DNA from: an uncultured Alphaproteobacteria bacterium
Lineage (GTDB): Bacteria; Pseudomonadota; Alphaproteobacteria; Rhodobacterales; Rhodobacteraceae
Direction of reading: 5' to 3'
DNA: 64,000 nt
NCBI GenBank assembly: GCA_963779765.1
Contig: CAVZZP010000002.1
Coordinates: 904,247 to 968,246 of the forward strand
Below the pieces are notes generated by a model. The model saw nothing but the letters and a program-made list of their open reading frames with translations, searched no databases and was not told where the DNA came from. Each line of letters starts with the position of its first letter. Position 1 is the first letter of the stretch. Positions 3,278-43,911 of this stretch are shown in pieces. A program made the translations under genes and the position numbers.

Positions 3278-3904
3278 ATGGGTTTTCTGGCCTTTCTGTT
3301 CCGTCCGCTGACGCGAGCGCCTTCGCGTCGTGGTCCACCCGACATCGTCGTGCGCGACGTTGTTCGGAATACGCCGACAAGGCCACGCTCCACTCCGACG
3401 TCTCGGGCGGTCACCGTTCCCCGAACGGAGTTCAAGCTCTCCGCTGCATCGCCATACCCGCGCCGCGAAGAGCGTGCGATGCGAGCGCATGCGGTGGCGG
3501 CGCATGCGCGACGGAATGGCCCACACCTTTTCAAAGGCAAGTGCTGGGTCATCGACGGCGACACGATCGTCATCGACAGTGTTCATATCCGGCTGGCGGG
3601 GATCGATGCGCCGGAACTGGATCATCCGTGGGGCTTGAAGGCCAAGTGGGCACTGGTGGCTCTCTGCAAGGGCCAGATCGTGACAGCCAAGGTCTCGGGA
3701 GATGTGTCGCATGATCGTTTGGTCGCCGTCTGCACCCTTCCCGACGGACGCGACCTGGCCGAGGAGCTGGTGAAGCAAGGCCTGGCGCTGGATTGGGCAG
3801 CCTTCTCGGGCGGCAGGTACGCCTGCCATGAGCCAGACGGCGTCCGCAAACGGCTGTGGCGAGCCGCGGGCCGCCAGAAGGCCGAACCGCGGCGTCTGCA
3901 CTGA
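3278..3904 (+). CDS. Thermonuclease (SNase) family protein
   Basis: VIDGDT...IRLAGIDAPE...RLVAVC...LVKQGLA motifs. Confidence 0.85.
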   Translation: MGFLAFLFRPLTRAPSRRGPPDIVVRDVVRNTPTRPRSTPTSRAVTVPRTEFKLSAASPYPRREERAMRAHAVAAHARRNGPHLFKGKCWVIDGDTIVIDSVHIRLAGIDAPELDHPWGLKAKWALVALCKGQIVTAKVSGDVSHDRLVAVCTLPDGRDLAEELVKQGLALDWAAFSGGRYACHEPDGVRKRLWRAAGRQKAEPRRLH

Positions 3905-3905
3905 C

Positions 3906-5213
3906 CTAGAGTTTTCGGATCTTTAGCCGGGTGATGCGGTTTTCCCGTCGGTCGAGGATCTCGAAGCGGAAACCGTGGAATGAGAAGACCTGTCCCTTGA
4001 CCGGGATCGTCTGCGCCTCGTGGATGACGAGGCCGGCAATGGTGTTCGCCTCGTCGTCCGGCAGCGTCCAGTCCATCGCGCGATTGATGTCGCGGATGGT
4101 CATGGCGCCGTCGACAAGCACGTCTCCGGCTTCGGTCCGACGGATCGGGTGGTCTTCGTCGATGTCGAATTCGTCGGTGATCTCGCCCACGATTTCCTCG
4201 AGAATGTCCTCCAGCGTCAGAAGCCCCTGAAGCGTGCCATATTCGTCGACCACCAGCGCAAAGTGAGTGGCGCGTCGCAGGAACTGCCGCATCTGATCGT
4301 CCAGAGTGGTCGTCTCGGGCACGAAGTATGGCTCCATCGCGACGTCCATGACGTCGAAGCCCTCGAAGGGTTCTGTATTCGGTTCGATCGCGGCGTAACG
4401 GGCGTAGATGGCACGCAGCAGGTCCTTGGCGTGGAGGACGCCGATGATGTTCTCCTGCTCGTTGCGGAAGATCGGCAACCGCGTGTGCGAGGAATTCAGG
4501 CAGATCTCGAGAATTTCCCGCGGGGGCAGATCGGCATCGATCATCGCGATCTTCGAGCGGTGAAGCATGATCTCCTCCACCGTCCGCTCGCCAAGGTCGA
4601 GCGCGCCCAGGATGCGATCCCGGTGCTCTTTCTCGAGGACGCCTTCGGAATGGCCGAGTTGCAGGGCGCCCGCGATCTCTTCGTGGACCGACAGGATACG
4701 GCTGTCCGGGTCGACCCGGACACCGACGACGTAGAGAAGGCCGCGCACGATAGCCCGGACGGCCCCCACGATTGGAGCGAGAAGGAAGATCACCGCCTGG
4801 ATCGGTCGCGAAACCCGGGCGGCGGCCGTCTCGGCGTTCGAGATGGCGTAAGTCTTGGGAAGGACCTCGGCGAAGATCAGGACGAGAAGGGTCATAACGA
4901 GAGTCGCCAGCGCCACGCCGCTATCCCCGAACGCGCGTGTGAAAAGAGAGGTGGCAAGCGATGTCGCCGAAATGTTGACGAGGTTGTTCCCGAGAAGGAC
5001 CGAGCCGATCAGCCGTTCGCTGTCCTCGGTGATGACCAGCGCACGCTCGGCACCCCGGTCTCCCTTCTCGGCGCGGGACTTCAGCTTGCCGCGCGAGGCA
5101 GCGGTCAAGGCCGTCTCGGATCCCGAGAAGAAGGCCGACATGACGAGAAGAAGCAGGATCGCCCCGGAGACGATCCAGTAGGTGACGTCGAGGGGCGTCG
5201 CTGCGCTGTCCAT
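3906..5213 (-). CDS. HlyC/CorC (CNNM-CBS-CorC) Mg/Co transporter
   Basis: SAFFSGSETAL, FAEVLPK, VVDEYG, TLEDILEEIVGEITDEFD motifs. Confidence 0.93.
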   Translation of the reverse strand: MDSAATPLDVTYWIVSGAILLLLVMSAFFSGSETALTAASRGKLKSRAEKGDRGAERALVITEDSERLIGSVLLGNNLVNISATSLATSLFTRAFGDSGVALATLVMTLLVLIFAEVLPKTYAISNAETAAARVSRPIQAVIFLLAPIVGAVRAIVRGLLYVVGVRVDPDSRILSVHEEIAGALQLGHSEGVLEKEHRDRILGALDLGERTVEEIMLHRSKIAMIDADLPPREILEICLNSSHTRLPIFRNEQENIIGVLHAKDLLRAIYARYAAIEPNTEPFEGFDVMDVAMEPYFVPETTTLDDQMRQFLRRATHFALVVDEYGTLQGLLTLEDILEEIVGEITDEFDIDEDHPIRRTEAGDVLVDGAMTIRDINRAMDWTLPDDEANTIAGLVIHEAQTIPVKGQVFSFHGFRFEILDRRENRITRLKIRKL

Positions 5214-33526: not shown

Positions 33527-35534
33527 CGCGACCGCGATACGTCAGGTCGGCCAGCCAGTCCGCCGCAGGTCGCGGGTCCCCGTAGAGAGCACCTTGCGCA
33601 ACGCCGCATCCTCTGTCCCGCAATACCAGCGCCTGGCTGTCCCGCAGCACTCCGTCGACGGTCAAATCGATGCCGAGGGTTCGGGCAAGATCGACAAGGT
33701 TCGAGAGGATCACGCGGGACCTGGGGTTCCGCTCGATATCTTCGACGAGGGCGGGTGCGATCTTGATCTCGTCGACCGCGATCTTTCCCAAATGTCCGAG
33801 CGAGGAAAAGCCGGAGCCGAATTCGTCGATGGCGATGCGGCAGCCCGTGCGTCGCAGCGCGGTCGTTATGCATTCGAAGTCCGCTGCACCGTCCAGCCCG
33901 ATGGTTTCGCTGATTTCGACGGTCAGCTTCGCGGGATCGAAGCAATGACGTGCCAACGCATCGGCCACCGCATCCGCCCCGGCGCCACCCCGAAAGCCGA
34001 GGGCGGACACGTTGACGCTAAGCGCAAAATCAGTGCGTCGCCTCCGGTTCCAGTCCGATACGATGCCAATGGCGCTATCCAGCACATATCGGTCAAGATC
34101 GAAGATCAGCCCGGTGTTCTCGGCCGCACGGATCAGGTCGGACGACGGGACAGACCTGCCGCGTCGTTTCCAGTGGACGAGCGCTTCGAAGCCGAGACAT
34201 TCACCCGTGGCCATTCGGATCTTGGGCTGGAAATGAACGCACACCACGCCAGCGGCAAGGGCGGGAGGCAAGTCTTCTGCCAGGGTCGACCGGTCGAAGA
34301 CCTGCGCCTCGAACCGGCTTTCGTAGAACGTGAACTGCGAGCGGCCCCTCGATTTCGCGACCAGCAAGGCGAGGCTCGCCACCCGCATCAGTGTCTCGTA
34401 ACCGATGTCACCTTCCTCGGTGAGCTGCGACTGCGTGACGATGCCCAGGCTGACCGAAGGCACCACGGTGACGGCGCCCTTCGTGACTGGCTCGCCGCAG
34501 TTGGCGACCAACCCACGGCTCAATTCATCGAGTACGCTGCTCTCTTCGGTCGGTATGCAGAGGGCGAACCGGTCGCCCCCTGTCCGCGCCGCAAAACCGC
34601 CGACCCTGTTCGCAGCTTGCGCGACACGATGCCCGGTCTCGCGGATGACGGCGTCGCCGAAGGCCTGACCGCGACAGTCGTTGATGCCTGCGAAGTCATC
34701 CAGATCGACGACGATGAGCGCGATCGGTCTGGCCGCCGTCAAAGCCGCGGTAAGAAGATCCTGAAACCGGACGCGGTTCGGAAGCCCGGTCAGCGCATCG
34801 AAGTGTCGCGCCCTATCGGCGGCCTGTTCCGCGGACGAACGGGCATGACGGGCGCCCACCTCGCGTCGAAGGACGACGAGCGCCAGTGAGCCGGCCGCCA
34901 CGACCATTGCAAGGAGCACCGCAATGGCGGAGGCCAAACGCCTCATCATCGACACGCTGTGATCCAGCGACCCGACATTCACGTCGATGAGCGTCGCAAG
35001 CAAGTCCCCCATCCGCTCATGGGCGTCGTTGGCCGTTCTGGCGAGGCCTTTGGCCGACGCCGCGTCTATTCGCGGCGAGCCTGCACCATCGACGACTTGC
35101 AAGAGGCGCTCGACGGACTGCGCCACCAAGCGGGCCCTTTCCCTCGCCTTCCCTATGGTCTGCGTCAGGGCGCGATCATCATCGGACAGCGCCGTCAGCC
35201 TGGAGAGGTGAGTGCGAACCGTGACGAGATCCGCCGCAAGTGGATCGTCTGCAAATGTCGCGCCGGCGACCCCCGTCTCGGCGATGCGGTCCAGCGTGAA
35301 CAGGAGGTCGGCACCCAGAAGAATCTGGCGATCTCCAAGCTGCGCTCGGTCTAGCGAAAGTGATTGAACGGATGACATGAAGGTGTAAGCGACTGGCGCG
35401 ACGGCGAGTAAGAGAAGCGCCAGCGCGATCCTGAGGCCGCCCTGCGTGGTGAGAAAGTCCGCTATCCCGTTGTCGTGGGGTCTGTGCGGCCTCAATGACC
35501 GCCCATCCCATAGTCGCGCAAGATATTGTCCCAT
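33501..35534 (-). CDS. Membrane-anchored GGDEF-EAL protein with degenerate motifs
   Basis: Two TM helices; DALTGLPNR, GGDRF, FEALVHW, IDEFGSG, VDGV; start could also be 35585. Confidence 0.85.
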   Translation of the reverse strand: MGQYLARLWDGRSLRPHRPHDNGIADFLTTQGGLRIALALLLLAVAPVAYTFMSSVQSLSLDRAQLGDRQILLGADLLFTLDRIAETGVAGATFADDPLAADLVTVRTHLSRLTALSDDDRALTQTIGKARERARLVAQSVERLLQVVDGAGSPRIDAASAKGLARTANDAHERMGDLLATLIDVNVGSLDHSVSMMRRLASAIAVLLAMVVAAGSLALVVLRREVGARHARSSAEQAADRARHFDALTGLPNRVRFQDLLTAALTAARPIALIVVDLDDFAGINDCRGQAFGDAVIRETGHRVAQAANRVGGFAARTGGDRFALCIPTEESSVLDELSRGLVANCGEPVTKGAVTVVPSVSLGIVTQSQLTEEGDIGYETLMRVASLALLVAKSRGRSQFTFYESRFEAQVFDRSTLAEDLPPALAAGVVCVHFQPKIRMATGECLGFEALVHWKRRGRSVPSSDLIRAAENTGLIFDLDRYVLDSAIGIVSDWNRRRRTDFALSVNVSALGFRGGAGADAVADALARHCFDPAKLTVEISETIGLDGAADFECITTALRRTGCRIAIDEFGSGFSSLGHLGKIAVDEIKIAPALVEDIERNPRSRVILSNLVDLARTLGIDLTVDGVLRDSQALVLRDRGCGVAQGALYGDPRPAADWLADLTYRGRGQAATSAA

Positions 35535-35555
35535 CCCGCATTGTTCATCGATCAG

Positions 35556-39834: not shown

Positions 39835-40233
39835 CTAGCGGCTGACGGAGCCGAGAACCGGGCGGGGGTTCAGGGCACCCGAGGCGCCGCAGGCCAGGTC
39901 GACGCTTTCGCCGCCATAGACCTCGACCCTCTGCCAGGCCTCGCCACCCGAGGTGCGGGCGCTGACGATCCAGTCGCCGTCCTCGAGAGCGATGACCAGC
40001 GGGCGGCCGACCTGGCAGCGCCCGACCTCGCGGCCTTCGACGAGGATGACGGGCGATGTGGCGGCCTGCGAGAAGAACTCGACGTCCGAGGGCCGCGTTA
40101 TGGTCAGCGTGTTCCGGGCCAGGGCCGAGAGTTGCGCGGGCGTCGGGTCCGCGCCCGTGGGGCCGACCTGGGCGGTGCCGATGAAGCAGCCCGGCAGGGC
40201 GAGGAGAAGCGGGAGGGTCAGGAGGCGTCGCAT
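39835..40233 (-). CDS. Hypothetical lipoprotein
   Basis: MRRLLTLPLLLALPGC lipobox; small beta-rich domain with two further Cys. Confidence 0.7.
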   Translation of the reverse strand: MRRLLTLPLLLALPGCFIGTAQVGPTGADPTPAQLSALARNTLTITRPSDVEFFSQAATSPVILVEGREVGRCQVGRPLVIALEDGDWIVSARTSGGEAWQRVEVYGGESVDLACGASGALNPRPVLGSVSR

Positions 40234-40308
40234 GAATTTAGGGTAGGACGGTTCGCCCGGTCGGACAAGGCGCCCCGGGATCAAAGCCTCGTGGTTTCCG
40301 CCCGTCTC

Positions 40309-40605
40309 TCAGATCGAGAAGACGACCTCGCCCGAGCGCGGCTCGGTCACGCCGAGGTCGCCGCCCAGATCCTCGAGCGTCTCGCGGAAGCTGTCGAGCG
40401 TCGCGATCATCTTCGGCCGGGCGGCGGACAGCGCGTCCATGCTCTCCCACTCGCCGACGACGAGATAGTCGCGGTCGCCGGTCTTCACGATGCGAAAGCT
40501 CTTCATGCCCTCGAAGTCGTCGCGCCGCCGCGCCTCGTGCGCCGCGAGGAACGCACCCTCCTGCCCCGCCTTCACCTTCATGCGGACGATGTTCATGGCT
40601 GTCAT
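40309..40605 (-). CDS. Dimeric alpha-beta barrel (ABM-like) protein
   Basis: MNIVRMKVKAG...VGEWES...RPKMIATLD; GGAGG RBS. Confidence 0.75.
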   Translation of the reverse strand: MTAMNIVRMKVKAGQEGAFLAAHEARRRDDFEGMKSFRIVKTGDRDYLVVGEWESMDALSAARPKMIATLDSFRETLEDLGGDLGVTEPRSGEVVFSI

Positions 40606-40666
40606 GTTCGGGTCCTCCCCCAAGGTTTCCCGGCGGGAAGCGTAGCATGGATCGGGCGCAAATTTC

Positions 40667-41467
40667 CTAAAGTATCACATCCGCTGAAACATCATATCCA
40701 GCCGCTTTCATCTCTTTCACGACTTCAAACTGCCACATGCCGCGATCATCAAGATCTGTGTATAGGACGCCAAGGATATCAGACGGCTCCTCTAGAATCT
40801 TCCTTAAGGACACAAACTCTATCGCGTCTCGAAACTTTCCAACAAAATAACCTAGCTCAAGTATCACATTCTGTCTCGCGCGAGGCATTAGTCTCGCATC
40901 CTCCAACTTCTCAGCACTCTTTCCACCTATGTCATCTGCTGTCATCAGAATAATTGCAAATCCGACCTGTGAGCTTTGCTCGAACTTTTCAATAATTGTT
41001 CTACCCTTGTTCGGCTGCTCTCTAAGAATTATTGCCTGAAGGCCCAATTTTTCAATCAGCCTAGCTAACTTCGCAATTCTCACTTCGTCATGCCCATGAA
41101 CAATAAATATCTGATCGCCCACGCCGAACTGCCCTAGTGCGGCCGCCTCATGAACAAAGGAAGAATCCTTCTTGCTTGGCAAGAGTTCCACAAGTCTGTT
41201 GAGTATTCCCATCGCTCTGTCGCGATTTGCTCGCCTCAACTCCCTAGGTCTTCCAACATAAAACGTGTAAGAATCCTCCCATTATTGGCAAAATAACTTC
41301 CAGCACCTGACGCGTAGATTGCTTCCAGCGTATCCCTAGTTGTTTCGTACCACCAAGTCAGGAGCATCCGCGTTTTCAGGGCAGTCCTGAAGAGTAGAAA
41401 TGCGTTCAAGTATGCGAGCGCGAGCTTCCTCTGGCGAAACCAAGAGATCTGAACAATCAAAATCCAT
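40667..41467 (-). CDS. AT-rich TIR-domain protein (Cap12/Pycsar-type TIR, PF10137-like) with about 4 indels as sequenced
   Basis: IFIVHGHDE, IILREQPNKGRTIIEKFE, FAIILMTADD, RARQNVILELGYF, EPSDILGV. Reconstructed start ATG 41467 MDFDCSDLLVSPEEARARILERI. Confidence 0.8.
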
Positions 41468-41471
41468 CCAA

Positions 41472-42370
41472 TCACCCCCTCAAACTCCCGCCACTCCCCC
41501 TTGCTCATGCCGGAGGTCTCCTGCGTGACCTCCTCACCCTTCAGCATCCGCCGCAGGCAATCAAGCGCCTTGCCCCGACAGCGTTGCCCCGCCCAGCCGG
41601 TAATCCTCGAAGGCCCCGTAGGCGTAGGGCACCCAGTCCTTCACCAGCCGGCAGATCTCCTCGGCGTAGACGCGGATCTCGTATTGCGCGTGGGCGTCGG
41701 CGCGCAGGCGCAGGAAATGGAAGAGGTTGTGGAGGTCCACCTTCCAGTACCATTGCGTGTAGATGTTGGCGGGCAGGTTCATCCGCGCCAGTTCCCGCGC
41801 GAGGCCCTGCTGGCCCTCTTGCCCGATCATCTCCTCGTAGTGGTCATAGGTCCGCGCCGCGTCGCCCTTGAGGTACTCCAGCACCCGCGCCGCCTCCTCG
41901 CCCGACAGCGCCTCGCCCCGGCCCTGGTTGTTGACGGTGGATTGCGCGGCCAGATCCTCGGGCCGGGGGATGTAGAACTCGCGGTCGAGGATCGAATAGC
42001 GGGCGGAGTATTCGTTCACGTTGGCGGTGCGGTGGCGGATCCACTGGCGGGCGACGAAGACGGGGAGCTTCACGTGCAGCTTCACCTCGCACATCTCGAA
42101 GGGGGTCGAGTGCCAGTGCCGCATCAGATAGCGGATCAGCCCCTCGTCGTTCGACACGGCCTTGGTGCCCCGGCCATAGGACACCCGCGCGGCCTGGGTG
42201 ATCGCGGCGTCGTCGCCCATGTAGTCGATGACGCGGACGAAGCCGTGATCCAGCACCGGGTAGGCGGTGTAGAGATGCGCCTCCATCCCCTCCGACACGG
42301 CGCGCAGCGTGGGGCGGCTTTGCGTGCGCAGGGCGTCGATTTCGGCCTGTTGCTCGGGGGTCAGGGGCAT
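41472..42370 (-). CDS. thyX: FAD-dependent thymidylate synthase; frameshift near 41575, exact stop uncertain
   Basis: [38 protein letters not shown]; C-terminus [28 protein letters not shown] in the next frame. Confidence 0.95.
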
Positions 42371-42402
42371 GGGGGTCTCCGTTCGGTCGATGTCGCAGGA
42401 CC

Positions 42403-42449
42403 GCACCTTATCTTGGGGGAGGCCTTACGTGAACCACAATATGCCGGTG
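42403..42449. promoter_or_regulatory. Tandem NrdR-like boxes upstream of thyX
   Basis: gcaCCTTATCTTGggg (42403-18) and ccaCAATATGCCGgtg (42434-49), each 8/10 to core CWANATNTWG, 31 bp apart. Confidence 0.62.
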
Positions 42450-42555
42450 CGTTCGTTCCGCGTCCGGGATCAATTCCGCCCATCCCCGCCGCCCGCTGTT
42501 GACATCGCCAGCGGGGCGCGGTGTCTGGTCTGACAGGCACGGGAAGGATGGTTCG

Positions 42556-43911
42556 ATGCGCGCGTTCATGGGTATTCTGGCAGCGGTGATGTTCTGCGCA
42601 ACGGGCGTTCCGGCGCAGGAAGCGACCCGCTCGGCCAGCGTCGCCGAAGTGCGCCTCGCCGCTCGCGCCGCGGCGCTTCAGGGTGATTTCCGGGCGGCGG
42701 ATGCTCTTTCCTCAACCCTTCTTGCGCGCGATCCGAACGATGCCGAGGCCCTTCTGATCCGCGCCGTGGTGGCCCGCGCCGCGGGACAGCCCGCCGCGTC
42801 GGTCGAGGCCGCGACGAAAGCCTACGGACTTCTCGACGAGGACGGCAAGCGCTTCGACGCCGCGATGCTGGCCGCCGAGGGCCATGCCCGACAGGAACAG
42901 TTCACGCGCTCGCAACTCTGGCTGCGCCGGGCCGATCAGGTCGCGCCGAATCCGCAGGCGGAGCAGCTCGTTCAACGCACCTACGGCCAGGTCGCCGCGC
43001 GCAATCCCCTGTCGGTGCAGCTGTCCTTCTCTCTCCAGCCGTCGAACAACGTGAACAACGGGGCCGAGACCACGGTGATCGAGATCGGCGGCCTGCCCTT
43101 CTCTCTCGACGACAGCGGCCGGCAGCTTGGCGGCTATGAGGCGTCGACCGGGGTATCGCTGTCCTTTCGCCTGGCCGAGGACAGGACGCACCGGACCGAT
43201 GTCCTGGGCGAGTTATATTTCCGCAAGGTCTGGCTCGATTCCGACGCGAAGGCCGAAGCGCCGGATGTCGAGGGGTCGGACTTCGACTATGGCGTCGCCA
43301 TCATCGGCCTGCGCGAGACGCGCCTTCTCTGGCCGGACCTCGGACCGACGCAACTGACCGGCCTCCTGGGACAAAGCTGGTATGGTGGCGACGAGCAGGC
43401 TCGCTGGATCGAACTTCAGGGCGCGCAATTGTTCAAGCGGTCCGACACGCTGGCCTTTCGTCTGGGCGCTACGGTCCGTGACGAGACGCGCATCGGAGAC
43501 GCGATCAACGACTCGCTTTCACTCGGGTTGTCGGGCGACGTGATCTTCGCCGGGGACGAAGGCCGCACGACCTCCTTCGGGGCGACGATCAAGAGCTACA
43601 ACTCCGATTCCGCGACGATCGACGGCATGGCCTACGGGTTGAAGGCCAGCCACAGCTTCGGCACCATCGGCTCTGTCCAGCCCTCGATCCGCGCCGCCAT
43701 CGAGACGCGCGATTTCGAGAAATGGAGTTCGACGCCGGGCGGCCGTCGCGACGACAGCCTGTCGCTCGGCCTCAATGTCGTCTTCCCCGAGGTCAGCTAC
43801 TACGGCTTCCTGCCGCAGCTTTCCCTGAACGCGCGTCGCGTCTGGTCGGACGTCGGCATCTATGATCGCAATCAGTTTTCCGTGGGCTTCACGGCCGTCT
43901 CGCGCTTTTAG
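42556..43911 (+). CDS. TPR + beta-barrel outer-membrane protein (Slam/DUF560-like)
   Basis: Signal peptide, TPR-like helices, PSNNVNNG, alternating beta strands, terminal Phe (VSRF). Confidence 0.7.
   Translation: MRAFMGILAAVMFCATGVPAQEATRSASVAEVRLAARAAALQGDFRAADALSSTLLARDPNDAEALLIRAVVARAAGQPAASVEAATKAYGLLDEDGKRFDAAMLAAEGHARQEQFTRSQLWLRRADQVAPNPQAEQLVQRTYGQVAARNPLSVQLSFSLQPSNNVNNGAETTVIEIGGLPFSLDDSGRQLGGYEASTGVSLSFRLAEDRTHRTDVLGELYFRKVWLDSDAKAEAPDVEGSDFDYGVAIIGLRETRLLWPDLGPTQLTGLLGQSWYGGDEQARWIELQGAQLFKRSDTLAFRLGATVRDETRIGDAINDSLSLGLSGDVIFAGDEGRTTSFGATIKSYNSDSATIDGMAYGLKASHSFGTIGSVQPSIRAAIETRDFEKWSSTPGGRRDDSLSLGLNVVFPEVSYYGFLPQLSLNARRVWSDVGIYDRNQFSVGFTAVSRF

What the first reader, a model, noticed from the sequence alone, without database searches (positions are those of the whole stretch)
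40667..41475. AT-rich orphan TIR gene grafted onto the thyX 3' end
Seen: an ~800-bp patch of low GC (hand counts 24/60 at 40801-60 and 23/60 at 40981-41040, against 46/60 at 39841-900). It encodes a Cap12/Pycsar-type TIR with the putative catalytic Glu (NVILELGYF) and a helical N-terminal region. Its ATG (41467) sits within or a few nt after the last thyX codons. No cyclase, STING/cNMP domain, integrase or flanking repeats are present. Known: this TIR class acts as an NADase effector in CBASS/Pycsar, activated by oligomerisation. Inference: a single-gene, horizontally acquired defence cassette in a variable slot after thyX. About 4 indels in 800 bp is far above the window average and suggests low read support (only some strains carry it) or real decay.
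Basis: partly seen in the sequence, partly recalled or inferred. Interest (0 to 1): 0.72.

Follow-up and report, generated by a model that had tools for sequence, protein, structure and literature searches.

The report
Stand-alone TIR defence gene behind thyX
An 821-base AT-rich insert right behind the essential thymidylate-synthase gene thyX carries one foreign gene for a probable NAD-destroying TIR "suicide" enzyme of a catalogued but untested anti-phage candidate family; related bacteria hold other toxin or defence genes at the same spot, and the gene's four frame breaks look more like sequencing errors than decay.

Summary
Window 40648-41468 is the lowest-GC stretch of the window (46.7% against 64.3%). 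On the minus strand (ATG 41467, stop 40667) it encodes a helical N-terminal domain plus a CAP12/Pycsar-type TIR (PF10137, E 3e-31) with the catalytic Glu. The protein belongs to PADLOC's single-gene candidate PDC-S35 (E 6e-60), which has not been tested; this scan has met the family repeatedly on other DNA.

The insert is the ORF and almost nothing else. No cyclase, sensor, integrase or flanking repeat accompanies it.

The site is a real variable slot. The only congener holds an unrelated low-GC 467-aa gene there. About 14 of 20 related genera hold other low-GC cargo (RES, PIN, HicAB, Panacea, unknowns). Three further genera hold diverged TIRs of the same family.

Four frame breaks are confirmed, as two net-zero pairs, about 50 times the window's frameshift rate. 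I lean about 2:1 to assembly artefact. There is no substitutional decay (46 of 51 conserved columns kept). Essential thyX is itself frameshifted about 100 nt away. The assembly is error-prone. Two breaks sit at GANTC sites. No reads were available to settle it.

Verdict: a new member of a known, untested kind in an interesting slot.

The parts
40648..41468 (-). Low-GC insert (821 bp, 46.7% GC), bounded by the breakpoints of homology with the congener G001 and other relatives
   Evidence: Contigs of relatives in public runs stop aligning at 40647 and 41469.
40667..41467 (-). PDC-S35-type gene: helical N-terminal domain plus CAP12/Pycsar-type TIR, about 266 codons. ATG at 41467-41465, TAG at 40669-40667. 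As assembled it must be read A-B-A-C-A over three frames.
   Evidence: tblastn of P0001 and P0002 covers residues 3-266. Pfam and PADLOC hits. Frame map.
41357..41365 (-). Frame break 1: one extra base, frame A to B. Frame A then meets stops at 41336-41338 (TAG) and 41282-41284 (TAA).
   Evidence: The frame-B stretch LTWWYETTRDTLEAIYASGAGSYF aligns to P0001 residues 37-71, E 7e-9.
41276..41280 (-). Frame break 2: one base missing at a G run, frame B back to A. It lies 1-5 nt from a GANTC site (41271-41275).
40826..40834 (-). Frame break 3: frame A to C. It is either +2 (a GA duplication in CGAGAC) or -1.
   Evidence: The frame-C stretch RDRVCVLKED aligns to P0001 residues 214-223, E 9e-5. The spacing GKLGRxRVC has no gaps in 37 homologues.
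40793..40796 (-). Frame break 4: frame C back to A (-2 or +1), on a GANTC site (40795-40799). Between breaks 3 and 4 the assembled frame stays open but replaces about 13 residues of the strand after the catalytic helix.
40856..40858 (-). Codon of the putative catalytic glutamate (E of NVILELGYF)
   Evidence: The column is invariant in 37 homologues (E204 of P0001). It aligns with the Glu of NVVFEFGLF in Cap12 structures 9lmq and 7un8.
41472..42373 (-). thyX (PF02511). It is frameshifted at about 41572-41578 by one extra base in a G run. After correction, the conserved tail ...GEWREFEGV has no in-frame stop until 41236, unless the G5 run 41475-41479 is over-called by one; thyX would then end at TGA 41472-41474.
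   Evidence: Contigs of relatives lack one base at 41568-41578 (table 4). No thyA was found in the genome.
40309..40623 (-). Downstream core gene (ABM-domain monooxygenase-like), the right flank of the slot. It is conserved in G001.

Best explanation
The patch is a horizontally acquired one-gene cassette encoding a PDC-S35-type protein.

Architecture. By homology the protein has three parts: a five-helix N-terminal domain of about 100 residues, a flexible linker, and a Cap12/Pycsar-type TIR domain with the catalytic Glu.

Proposed mechanism (inferred, not shown). The protein is a self-contained abortive-infection switch. The N-terminal domain holds the TIR domain apart until a phage-derived cue arrives. 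The TIR domains then assemble head-to-tail as in TIR-STING filaments, form composite active sites, hydrolyse NAD+ and stop growth of the infected cell.

Position and expression. The cassette sits between the thyX stop codon and the downstream core gene. It has no promoter or terminator of its own. Its ATG is a few bases from the thyX end, so it is probably transcribed from the thyX promoter and translationally coupled to thyX. The same slot is a family-wide landing place for promoterless low-GC toxin or defence genes.

State of the gene. As assembled, it cannot make the full-length protein, because four frame breaks and two in-frame stops interrupt it. I judge these breaks more likely (about 2:1) to be errors of an indel-prone assembly than real inactivation.
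For: Identity
- PF10137 at E 3e-31.
- Five PADLOC PDC-S35 models, best E 5.9e-60.
- 7856 homologues, mostly 260-300 aa with the same architecture.
- PDB profile hits to Cap12 9lmq and 7un8 and to PycTIR 8jsj across the catalytic segment.
- In the AlphaFold model of the closest full-length homologue (pLDDT 84), helices span residues 13-96, the linker is disordered at 104-112, and the TIR domain's best Foldseek matches are TIR-STING 9lmq and 7un8.
- CAP12/Pycsar TIRs act as NADases on oligomerisation (bioRxiv 10.64898/2026.04.30.722052).

Foreign origin and slot
- The GC drop.
- Different cargo in the congener at identical breakpoints.
- Low-GC cargo of other families behind thyX in about 14 of 20 genera.
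- The three best homologues within the family also sit behind thyX.
- None of 60 metagenome loci of the family is next to thyX.

Co-expression
- No promoter-like site upstream of the gene and no terminator-like site anywhere in 40200-42600.
- In the relatives whose junction I read, cargo starts lie from overlapping the thyX stop to 5 nt after it.

Artefact reading of the breaks
- 46 of 51 columns that are at least 90% conserved are kept, and 4 of the 5 misses lie inside the shifted stretch.
- thyX is the only thymidylate synthase found. It carries a frameshift about 100 nt away, yet its tail differs from G001's by one residue.
- Six conserved genes in the window carry single-base insertions. 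The assembly scores 86% complete in only 4 contigs.
- Two of the four breaks lie within 5 nt of the patch's only three GANTC sites.
Against: - No member of PDC-S35 has been shown to defend against phage. The family is a 'guilt-by-embedding' candidate, and no paper mentions PDC-S35.
- NADase activity, the trigger and the role of the N-terminal domain are all inferred.
- The break density is about 50 times the window's frameshift rate. The breaks also differ in kind from the six others: they come in compensating pairs and include missing bases or 2-nt events, whereas the others are lone +1 insertions.
- A second thyX-slot TIR (G307, a 99%-complete assembly) is also split over two frames, so real inactivation of such genes does occur.
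- The WIN branch in the tree is long, 1.16 against a median of 0.36.
- No reads of the source could be laid on the region.
Confidence: 0.7

Rival explanations
1. The gene is a real, recently inactivated pseudogene. A toxic NADase gene, grafted onto a constitutively needed gene, was knocked out by indels in this strain.
For: - Four breaks in 0.8 kb against 0.1 per kb elsewhere.
- The breaks differ in type from the assembly's other frameshifts.
- The G307 slot TIR is also frame-split in a high-quality assembly.
- Related TIRs are toxic even at leaky expression.
Against: - There is no loss at conserved residues outside the shifted stretch, and no nonsense substitution in the ancestral frames. From general knowledge of bacterial pseudogenes, four neutral indels would normally come with tens of substitutions.
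- The adjacent essential thyX is frameshifted too, with an otherwise intact tail.
- Two breaks sit at GANTC sites.
Confidence: 0.3
2. The cassette is not an immune gene. It is a selfish or addiction-type toxin cargo, like the HicAB, RES and Panacea modules in the same slot of relatives, and persists because it is wedged against an essential gene.
For: Slot cargo in relatives is dominated by toxin-antitoxin-type families. The cargo has no own promoter. PDC-S35 is untested.
Against: No antitoxin-like partner exists in the 821-bp insert. The family was nominated because it is embedded in BREX, DISARM or type I RM systems. TA modules themselves often act in defence, so the two readings overlap.
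Confidence: 0.15
3. The TIR is a signal-producing enzyme of Thoeris type, or the effector of a CBASS or Pycsar system whose partner lies elsewhere in the genome.
For: TIR domains can make signalling nucleotides. PF10137 TIRs are effectors in CBASS and Pycsar.
Against: The protein has no STING, SAVED or cNMP-binding domain. The N-terminal domain is a helix bundle without a match. No cyclase or ThsA-type gene is adjacent. Stand-alone TIRs were explicitly set apart from signalling systems in the Thoeris survey.
Confidence: 0.03
4. thyX and the TIR gene form a read-through fusion, because thyX has no stop at the expected place.
For: After correction of the thyX frameshift, the frame stays open to 41236.
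Against: The read-through frame matches the TIR protein only over the short stretch that is itself frame-shifted. In all relatives thyX ends 2-4 codons after ...EF(E/Q)G(V/M). One over-called G in the G5 run would restore a TGA 4 nt before the ATG.
Confidence: 0.03

Closest known systems
PADLOC phage defence candidate PDC-S35 (Payne et al., bioRxiv 10.1101/2024.01.29.577857)
   Same: All five PDC-S35 models match, best at E 5.9e-60. The architecture agrees: a single gene of about 265 aa with a variable helical N-terminus and a C-terminal PF10137 TIR.
   Different: Here the gene sits behind a housekeeping gene rather than inside an RM, BREX or DISARM system. It is frame-broken as assembled. The family itself has no experimental support.
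Cap12 / TIR-STING of CBASS (SfSTING, PDB 7un8; 9lmq)
   Same: Same TIR subtype (PF10137), the same ...R.NV..E.G.F.G... catalytic segment, and the best structural match. Probably also the same activation by filament-forming oligomerisation and the same NAD+ hydrolysis.
   Different: No STING domain and no CD-NTase gene are present. The sensor is an unrelated helix bundle of about 100 aa, so the trigger cannot be a cyclic dinucleotide made by a partner cyclase.
PycTIR of Pycsar (PDB 8jsj)
   Same: The same TIR family by profile search (E 6e-5).
   Different: No cNMP-binding domain and no pyrimidine cyclase are present.
Integron gene cassettes
   Same: Promoterless, mostly single-ORF, low-GC cargo of toxin or defence type. 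It is inserted in one orientation at one fixed site and expressed from an upstream promoter.
   Different: No attC-like structure is present: only 19 nt follow the stop codon. No integrase lies nearby, and there is one cassette rather than an array.

Membership tests
Pfam PF10137 CAP12/Pycsar effector TIR domain | Match to the family profile above its gathering score | tested here: met
   108.3 bits against a cut-off of 24.7, covering profile positions 1-118 of 119.
Pfam PF10137 CAP12/Pycsar effector TIR domain | Conserved catalytic glutamate in the helix after the third strand | tested here: met
   NVILELGYF is present. The column is invariant in 37 homologues and aligns with the corresponding Glu of 9lmq and 7un8.
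Pfam PF10137 CAP12/Pycsar effector TIR domain | NAD+ hydrolase activity on oligomerisation | not testable with these tools
   This needs an enzyme assay. It is known for TIR-STING and amoeba TirC.
PADLOC PDC-S35 | Match to the PDC-S35 protein models | tested here: met
   PDLC05005 at E 5.9e-60, plus four further PDC-S35 models.
PADLOC PDC-S35 | Single-gene system: full-length N-terminal domain plus TIR, with no obligatory partner | tested here: met
   P0001 aligns over residues 3-266 when the three frames are followed. The insert holds only this ORF.
PADLOC PDC-S35 | An intact open reading frame | tested here: inconclusive
   The assembly shows four frame breaks and two stops. Indirect evidence favours sequence error. 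No reads were available.
PADLOC PDC-S35 | Protection against phage | not testable with these tools
   The family is an untested candidate.
CBASS (Cap12 effector) | CD-NTase cyclase gene, and a cyclic-nucleotide sensor domain (STING or SAVED) on the effector | tested here: not met
   The protein has no Pfam domain other than the TIR. The neighbours are core genes shared with G001.
Pycsar (PycTIR effector) | Pyrimidine cyclase gene, and a cNMP-binding domain on the effector | tested here: not met
   The PADLOC PycTIR model matches only weakly (E 0.0046, TIR part only).
Thoeris | ThsB-type TIR with an adjacent ThsA-type effector | tested here: not met
   No adjacent effector gene. The TIR is of the PF10137 type, which a published tree places in a different clade from ThsB TIRs.
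Integron cassette | attC recombination site at the cassette's 3' end and an intI integrase nearby | tested here: not met
   Only 19 nt lie between the stop codon and the conserved flank. No inverted repeat brackets the insert. Apart from a GGDEF/EAL insertion, the window is collinear with G001.

The most novel reading that the evidence does not exclude
In this alphaproteobacterial family, the few bases between the thyX stop codon and its GC-rich terminator or REP-like hairpin may be a dedicated acquisition site. Promoterless, AT-rich, ORF-sized toxin or defence cassettes (TIR, RES, PIN, HicAB, Panacea and unknowns) would be captured there by a mechanism that uses neither an integrase nor attC sites. 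Immunity genes would thereby be expressed from, and translationally coupled to, a nucleotide-pool-controlled essential gene. On this reading the TIR here is one exchangeable module of that system.
Probability: 0.25. Interest if true: 0.7.

Novelty: new member of a known kind. Interest (0 to 1): 0.4.

Why it matters
The gene itself adds one more, poorly conserved member to a very large family of stand-alone TIR proteins. That family is catalogued as a defence candidate but has never been tested.

The context is the more useful part. An essential dNTP-synthesis gene carries, in many genera, a tightly abutting, promoterless slot. The slot is filled with different NAD-targeting or RNA-targeting toxins.

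If the cargo really rides on the thyX transcript, defence expression would follow nucleotide demand. That idea is testable by RT-PCR and by phage challenge in culturable relatives.

There is also a practical lesson. In this indel-prone assembly, frame breaks cannot be read as pseudogenisation without reads.

Tried and rejected
- Read support. The look-up of sequencing runs listed no run with more than 22% of the sampled words and no RNA holder. Laying four runs gave zero depth over 40661-41415; only the flanks are covered, by relatives. Coverage and expression therefore could not be tested.
The contexts of the closest metagenome homologues P0001 and P0002 remain unknown.
- Error rate in low-GC DNA. 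The genome has only 18 low-GC islands and one rRNA operon, with no repeated copies to compare.
- Rfam: no RNA family in the locus.
- Flanking repeats: only short, imperfect chance-level matches.
- N-terminal ORF pieces gave no Pfam or PADLOC hit on their own.
- The congener's 467-aa cargo has no Pfam or PADLOC match.
- Literature: nothing for 'PDC-S35', one unrelated paper for 'COG4271', and nothing on a thyX hotspot.
- Integron, CBASS, Pycsar, Thoeris and ThyX-TIR fusion readings were considered and rejected (see membership tests and rivals).
- The tree is a quick one with weak support (84) for the clade holding the four slot TIRs. I draw no conclusion on one versus several acquisitions.

Full report
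**1. The observation**

The region 40648-41468 is a sharp compositional island. It has 46.7% GC, against 68.2% and 66.5% in the 1-kb flanks and 64.3% for the window. It is the lowest-GC 800-bp stretch of the 64 kb, more than 6 sd below the mean.

On the minus strand a 190-aa ORF (40667-41239) matches Pfam PF10137, 'CAP12/Pycsar effector protein, TIR domain'. The match has E 3e-31 and covers the whole profile. The ORF contains NVILELGYF.

The neighbours are as follows:
- thyX (PF02511) immediately upstream;
- an ABM-domain gene, a lipoprotein-like gene and a membrane protein downstream.

No cyclase, STING, SAVED or cNMP domain and no integrase is present.

**2. What the gene is**

All five PADLOC models of the single-gene 'phage defence candidate' PDC-S35 match, the best at E 5.9e-60. 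CBASS and Pycsar TIR-effector models match only weakly.

PDC systems are genes found embedded in BREX, DISARM or type I RM loci. They were added to PADLOC as untested candidates (bioRxiv 10.1101/2024.01.29.577857). No paper in the library mentions PDC-S35.

A search of 5.8 billion proteins returned 7856 significant relatives. Most are 260-300 aa, all carry PF10137, and many are called 'predicted nucleotide-binding protein containing TIR-like domain'. Identity to the window's ORF is 58% at most among the 120 listed.

In an alignment of 37 of them, the N-terminal 100-140 residues are variable. The C-terminal 150 residues are strongly conserved, with 23 invariant columns that include the Glu of ELGYF.

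A profile of this alignment finds three solved structures: Cap12/TIR-STING 9lmq and 7un8, and PycTIR 8jsj. In each the match runs across the catalytic segment.

I folded the closest full-length homologue (P0001, 266 aa), which is 46% identical to the window's gene over its whole length. The AlphaFold model has mean pLDDT 84. It shows five helices (residues 13-96), a linker that is disordered at 104-112, and a TIR fold. The best Foldseek matches of the model are the TIR domains of TIR-STING. The helical domain finds nothing.

**3. The frame breaks**

tblastn of P0001 and P0002 covers residues 3-266 in one nominal frame, but with two stops and two stretches that do not match. A three-frame map resolves this:
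- Residues 1 to about 36 are in frame A, starting at ATG 41467.
- The next 30 or so residues (LTWWYETTRDTLEAIYASGAGSYFANNG) are in frame B, BLASTP E 7e-9 against P0001.
- The gene returns to frame A at about 41278.
- It moves to frame C for RDRVCVLKED, E 9e-5.
- It returns to frame A at about 40795.

So there are four breaks forming two net-zero pairs: +1/-1, then either +2/-2 or -1/+1.

The effects differ:
- Between breaks 1 and 2, frame A carries two stops (41336-41338 and 41282-41284).
- Between breaks 3 and 4, frame A stays open but mistranslates about 13 residues next to the catalytic helix.

**4. Error or decay?**

The window is collinear with the only congener (G001, about 90% identity) apart from this island and one other insertion.

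I translated G001's genes and searched them against the window. Six conserved genes are split over two frames, each by a single extra base in G000. They lie near 679, 1774, 18757, 27092, 41578 (thyX) and 53261. The other 37 genes are intact. Together with 86% marker completeness for an assembly of only four contigs, this marks an indel-prone assembly with about 0.1 frameshift per kb.

Four breaks in 0.82 kb is about 50 times that rate (P 1.6e-6). The breaks also differ in kind from the other six: they are paired and not all +1. Taken alone, this would suggest real decay. A second slot TIR (G307, from a 99%-complete assembly) is likewise split over two frames, so real inactivation does occur.

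Four observations point the other way.

(a) There is no substitutional decay. Of 51 alignment columns that are at least 90% identical in 120 homologues, the window's ORF keeps 46. Four of the five misses lie inside the shifted stretch, and the fifth is L to V. Intact homologues keep 45-51. From general knowledge of bacterial pseudogenes, substitutions outnumber indels several-fold. Four neutral indels without a single hit at about 47 constrained codons, and without a nonsense substitution, would be unusual.

(b) thyX is the only thymidylate synthase found, since no thyA was detected (note the 86% completeness). It carries an extra base about 100 nt from the island, yet its 33-residue tail in the shifted frame differs from G001's by only one residue. 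Contigs of relatives in public runs lack one base there (table 4). After that correction thyX still has no stop, unless the G5 run 41475-41479 is over-called by one. The patch of bad sequence therefore extends into a conserved, GC-rich essential gene.

(c) The island has only three GANTC sites, and breaks 2 and 4 lie within 5 nt of two of them. Two of the six other frameshifts fall in GAGTTC or GACTTC, where removing one T gives GANTC. GANTC is the CcrM methylation motif of Alphaproteobacteria, and methylated motifs are a known source of systematic nanopore indels; both statements rest on my own knowledge. This link was noticed post hoc and is only a hint.

(d) Net-zero pairing does not discriminate between random errors and random mutations.

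I put artefact against real inactivation at roughly 2:1. Reads would settle it. However, no public run holds the island, and depth is zero over 40661-41415 in the four runs laid.

**5. The slot**

In G001, homology with the window stops at exactly 40647/40648 and 41468/41469. Between these points lies a different 1.46-kb low-GC stretch encoding a 467-aa protein without any Pfam or PADLOC match. Its start overlaps the thyX stop.

A contig from a third relative (run X2) also diverges at 41469 into AT-rich sequence.

I fetched the thyX-downstream region of 20 further genomes (18 of the same family, 2 of other families in the class). About 14 show a 0.8-1.5-kb patch of 40-52% GC that begins at the thyX stop. 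The cargo differs between genera:
- RES-domain proteins in two genera;
- a PIN_12 protein;
- a SocA/Panacea antitoxin with an unknown partner;
- HicA plus HicB;
- four proteins without a match.

Where I read the junction, the cargo start codon lies from overlapping the thyX stop to 5 nt after it.

The thyX tail ...GEWREFEGV is conserved at the nucleotide level up to the junction. The right edge often abuts GC-rich palindromes of REP or terminator type.

A search of 401 genera of the family with the TIR ORF found homologues in only 10. The three best (55%, 50% and 48% identity) also sit directly behind thyX. None of 60 metagenome loci of the wider family has thyX nearby. The thyX association is thus a property of this bacterial family's slot, not of the TIR family.

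In a quick tree the four slot TIRs fall in one weakly supported subclade, mixed with metagenome proteins. I do not decide between one and several acquisitions.

I confirmed the slot but did not test the NrdR boxes.

**6. Mechanism**

Shown here:
- the domain architecture;
- the conserved catalytic residues;
- the TIR-STING-like fold, seen in a homologue;
- the absence of partner genes;
- the absence of predicted promoter or terminator signals between thyX and the gene.

Inferred from what is known of Cap12/Pycsar TIRs:
- activation by oligomerisation;
- NAD+ hydrolysis;
- growth arrest of the infected cell.

Inferred from position: expression on the thyX transcript with translational coupling.

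The trigger and the role of the helical domain are unknown. I propose autoinhibition and sensing by that domain.

**7. Novelty and score**

The scan has met PDC-S35 members repeatedly on other DNA: in prophages, in a satellite, next to RM or Hma systems, and once inside a pyrimidine operon. The gene is therefore a new, sequence-isolated member of a known but untested kind.

The recurrent, promoterless low-GC cargo slot on the thyX stop codon is the more interesting aspect. I found no paper describing it. I score interest at 0.4.

Noticed in passing
window 679, 1774, 18757, 27092, 41578, 53261: Six conserved genes are split over two frames by a single extra base relative to the congener G001. 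Together with 86% completeness in 4 contigs, this marks an indel-prone assembly, so any 'pseudogene' call in this genome needs reads.
   Followed up: partly
window 33792-35543: A second difference from G001: a 1.75-kb stretch of normal GC holding most of a 694-aa ORF whose sequence I read as GGDEF/EAL-type (no domain search run). It is absent from the congener at the syntenic site.
   Followed up: no
L040 (G307) 1209-1947: The TIR gene behind thyX in another genus is also split. The N-terminal 82-aa ORF and the 183-aa TIR ORF are in different frames, in a 99%-complete assembly.
   Followed up: partly
L019 (G014) and L034 (G013), first ORF after thyX: Two genera carry RES-domain proteins (336 and 342 aa, with a Cys-rich N-terminus) in the thyX slot. 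RES toxins also target NAD+ (from my own knowledge, not tested here), so at least two unrelated NAD+-consuming effector types would use the slot.
   Followed up: partly
right edge of the cargo in L018, L019, L021, L023, L029, L034, L040, L041: GC-rich palindromes of REP or terminator type directly follow the cargo. G010 and G014 share almost the same GCAA(A/G)CGTAGGGTGCGTGCT(T/G)GCACGCAC element. They may be the original thyX terminator or a recombination target.
   Followed up: no
window 41472-41480: After correction of its frameshift, thyX has no in-frame stop at the junction. A TGA (41472-41474) becomes in-frame only if the G5 run 41475-41479 is one G too long.
   Followed up: partly
window 40795, 41271; also 679 and 1774: Frame-breaking indels tend to lie at or next to GANTC (CcrM-type) motifs. 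This hints at methylation-related basecalling errors.
   Followed up: partly
L013 (G001) 3360-4763: The congener's slot cargo is a 467-aa low-GC protein with no Pfam or PADLOC match: an uncharacterised candidate toxin or defence gene.
   Followed up: partly
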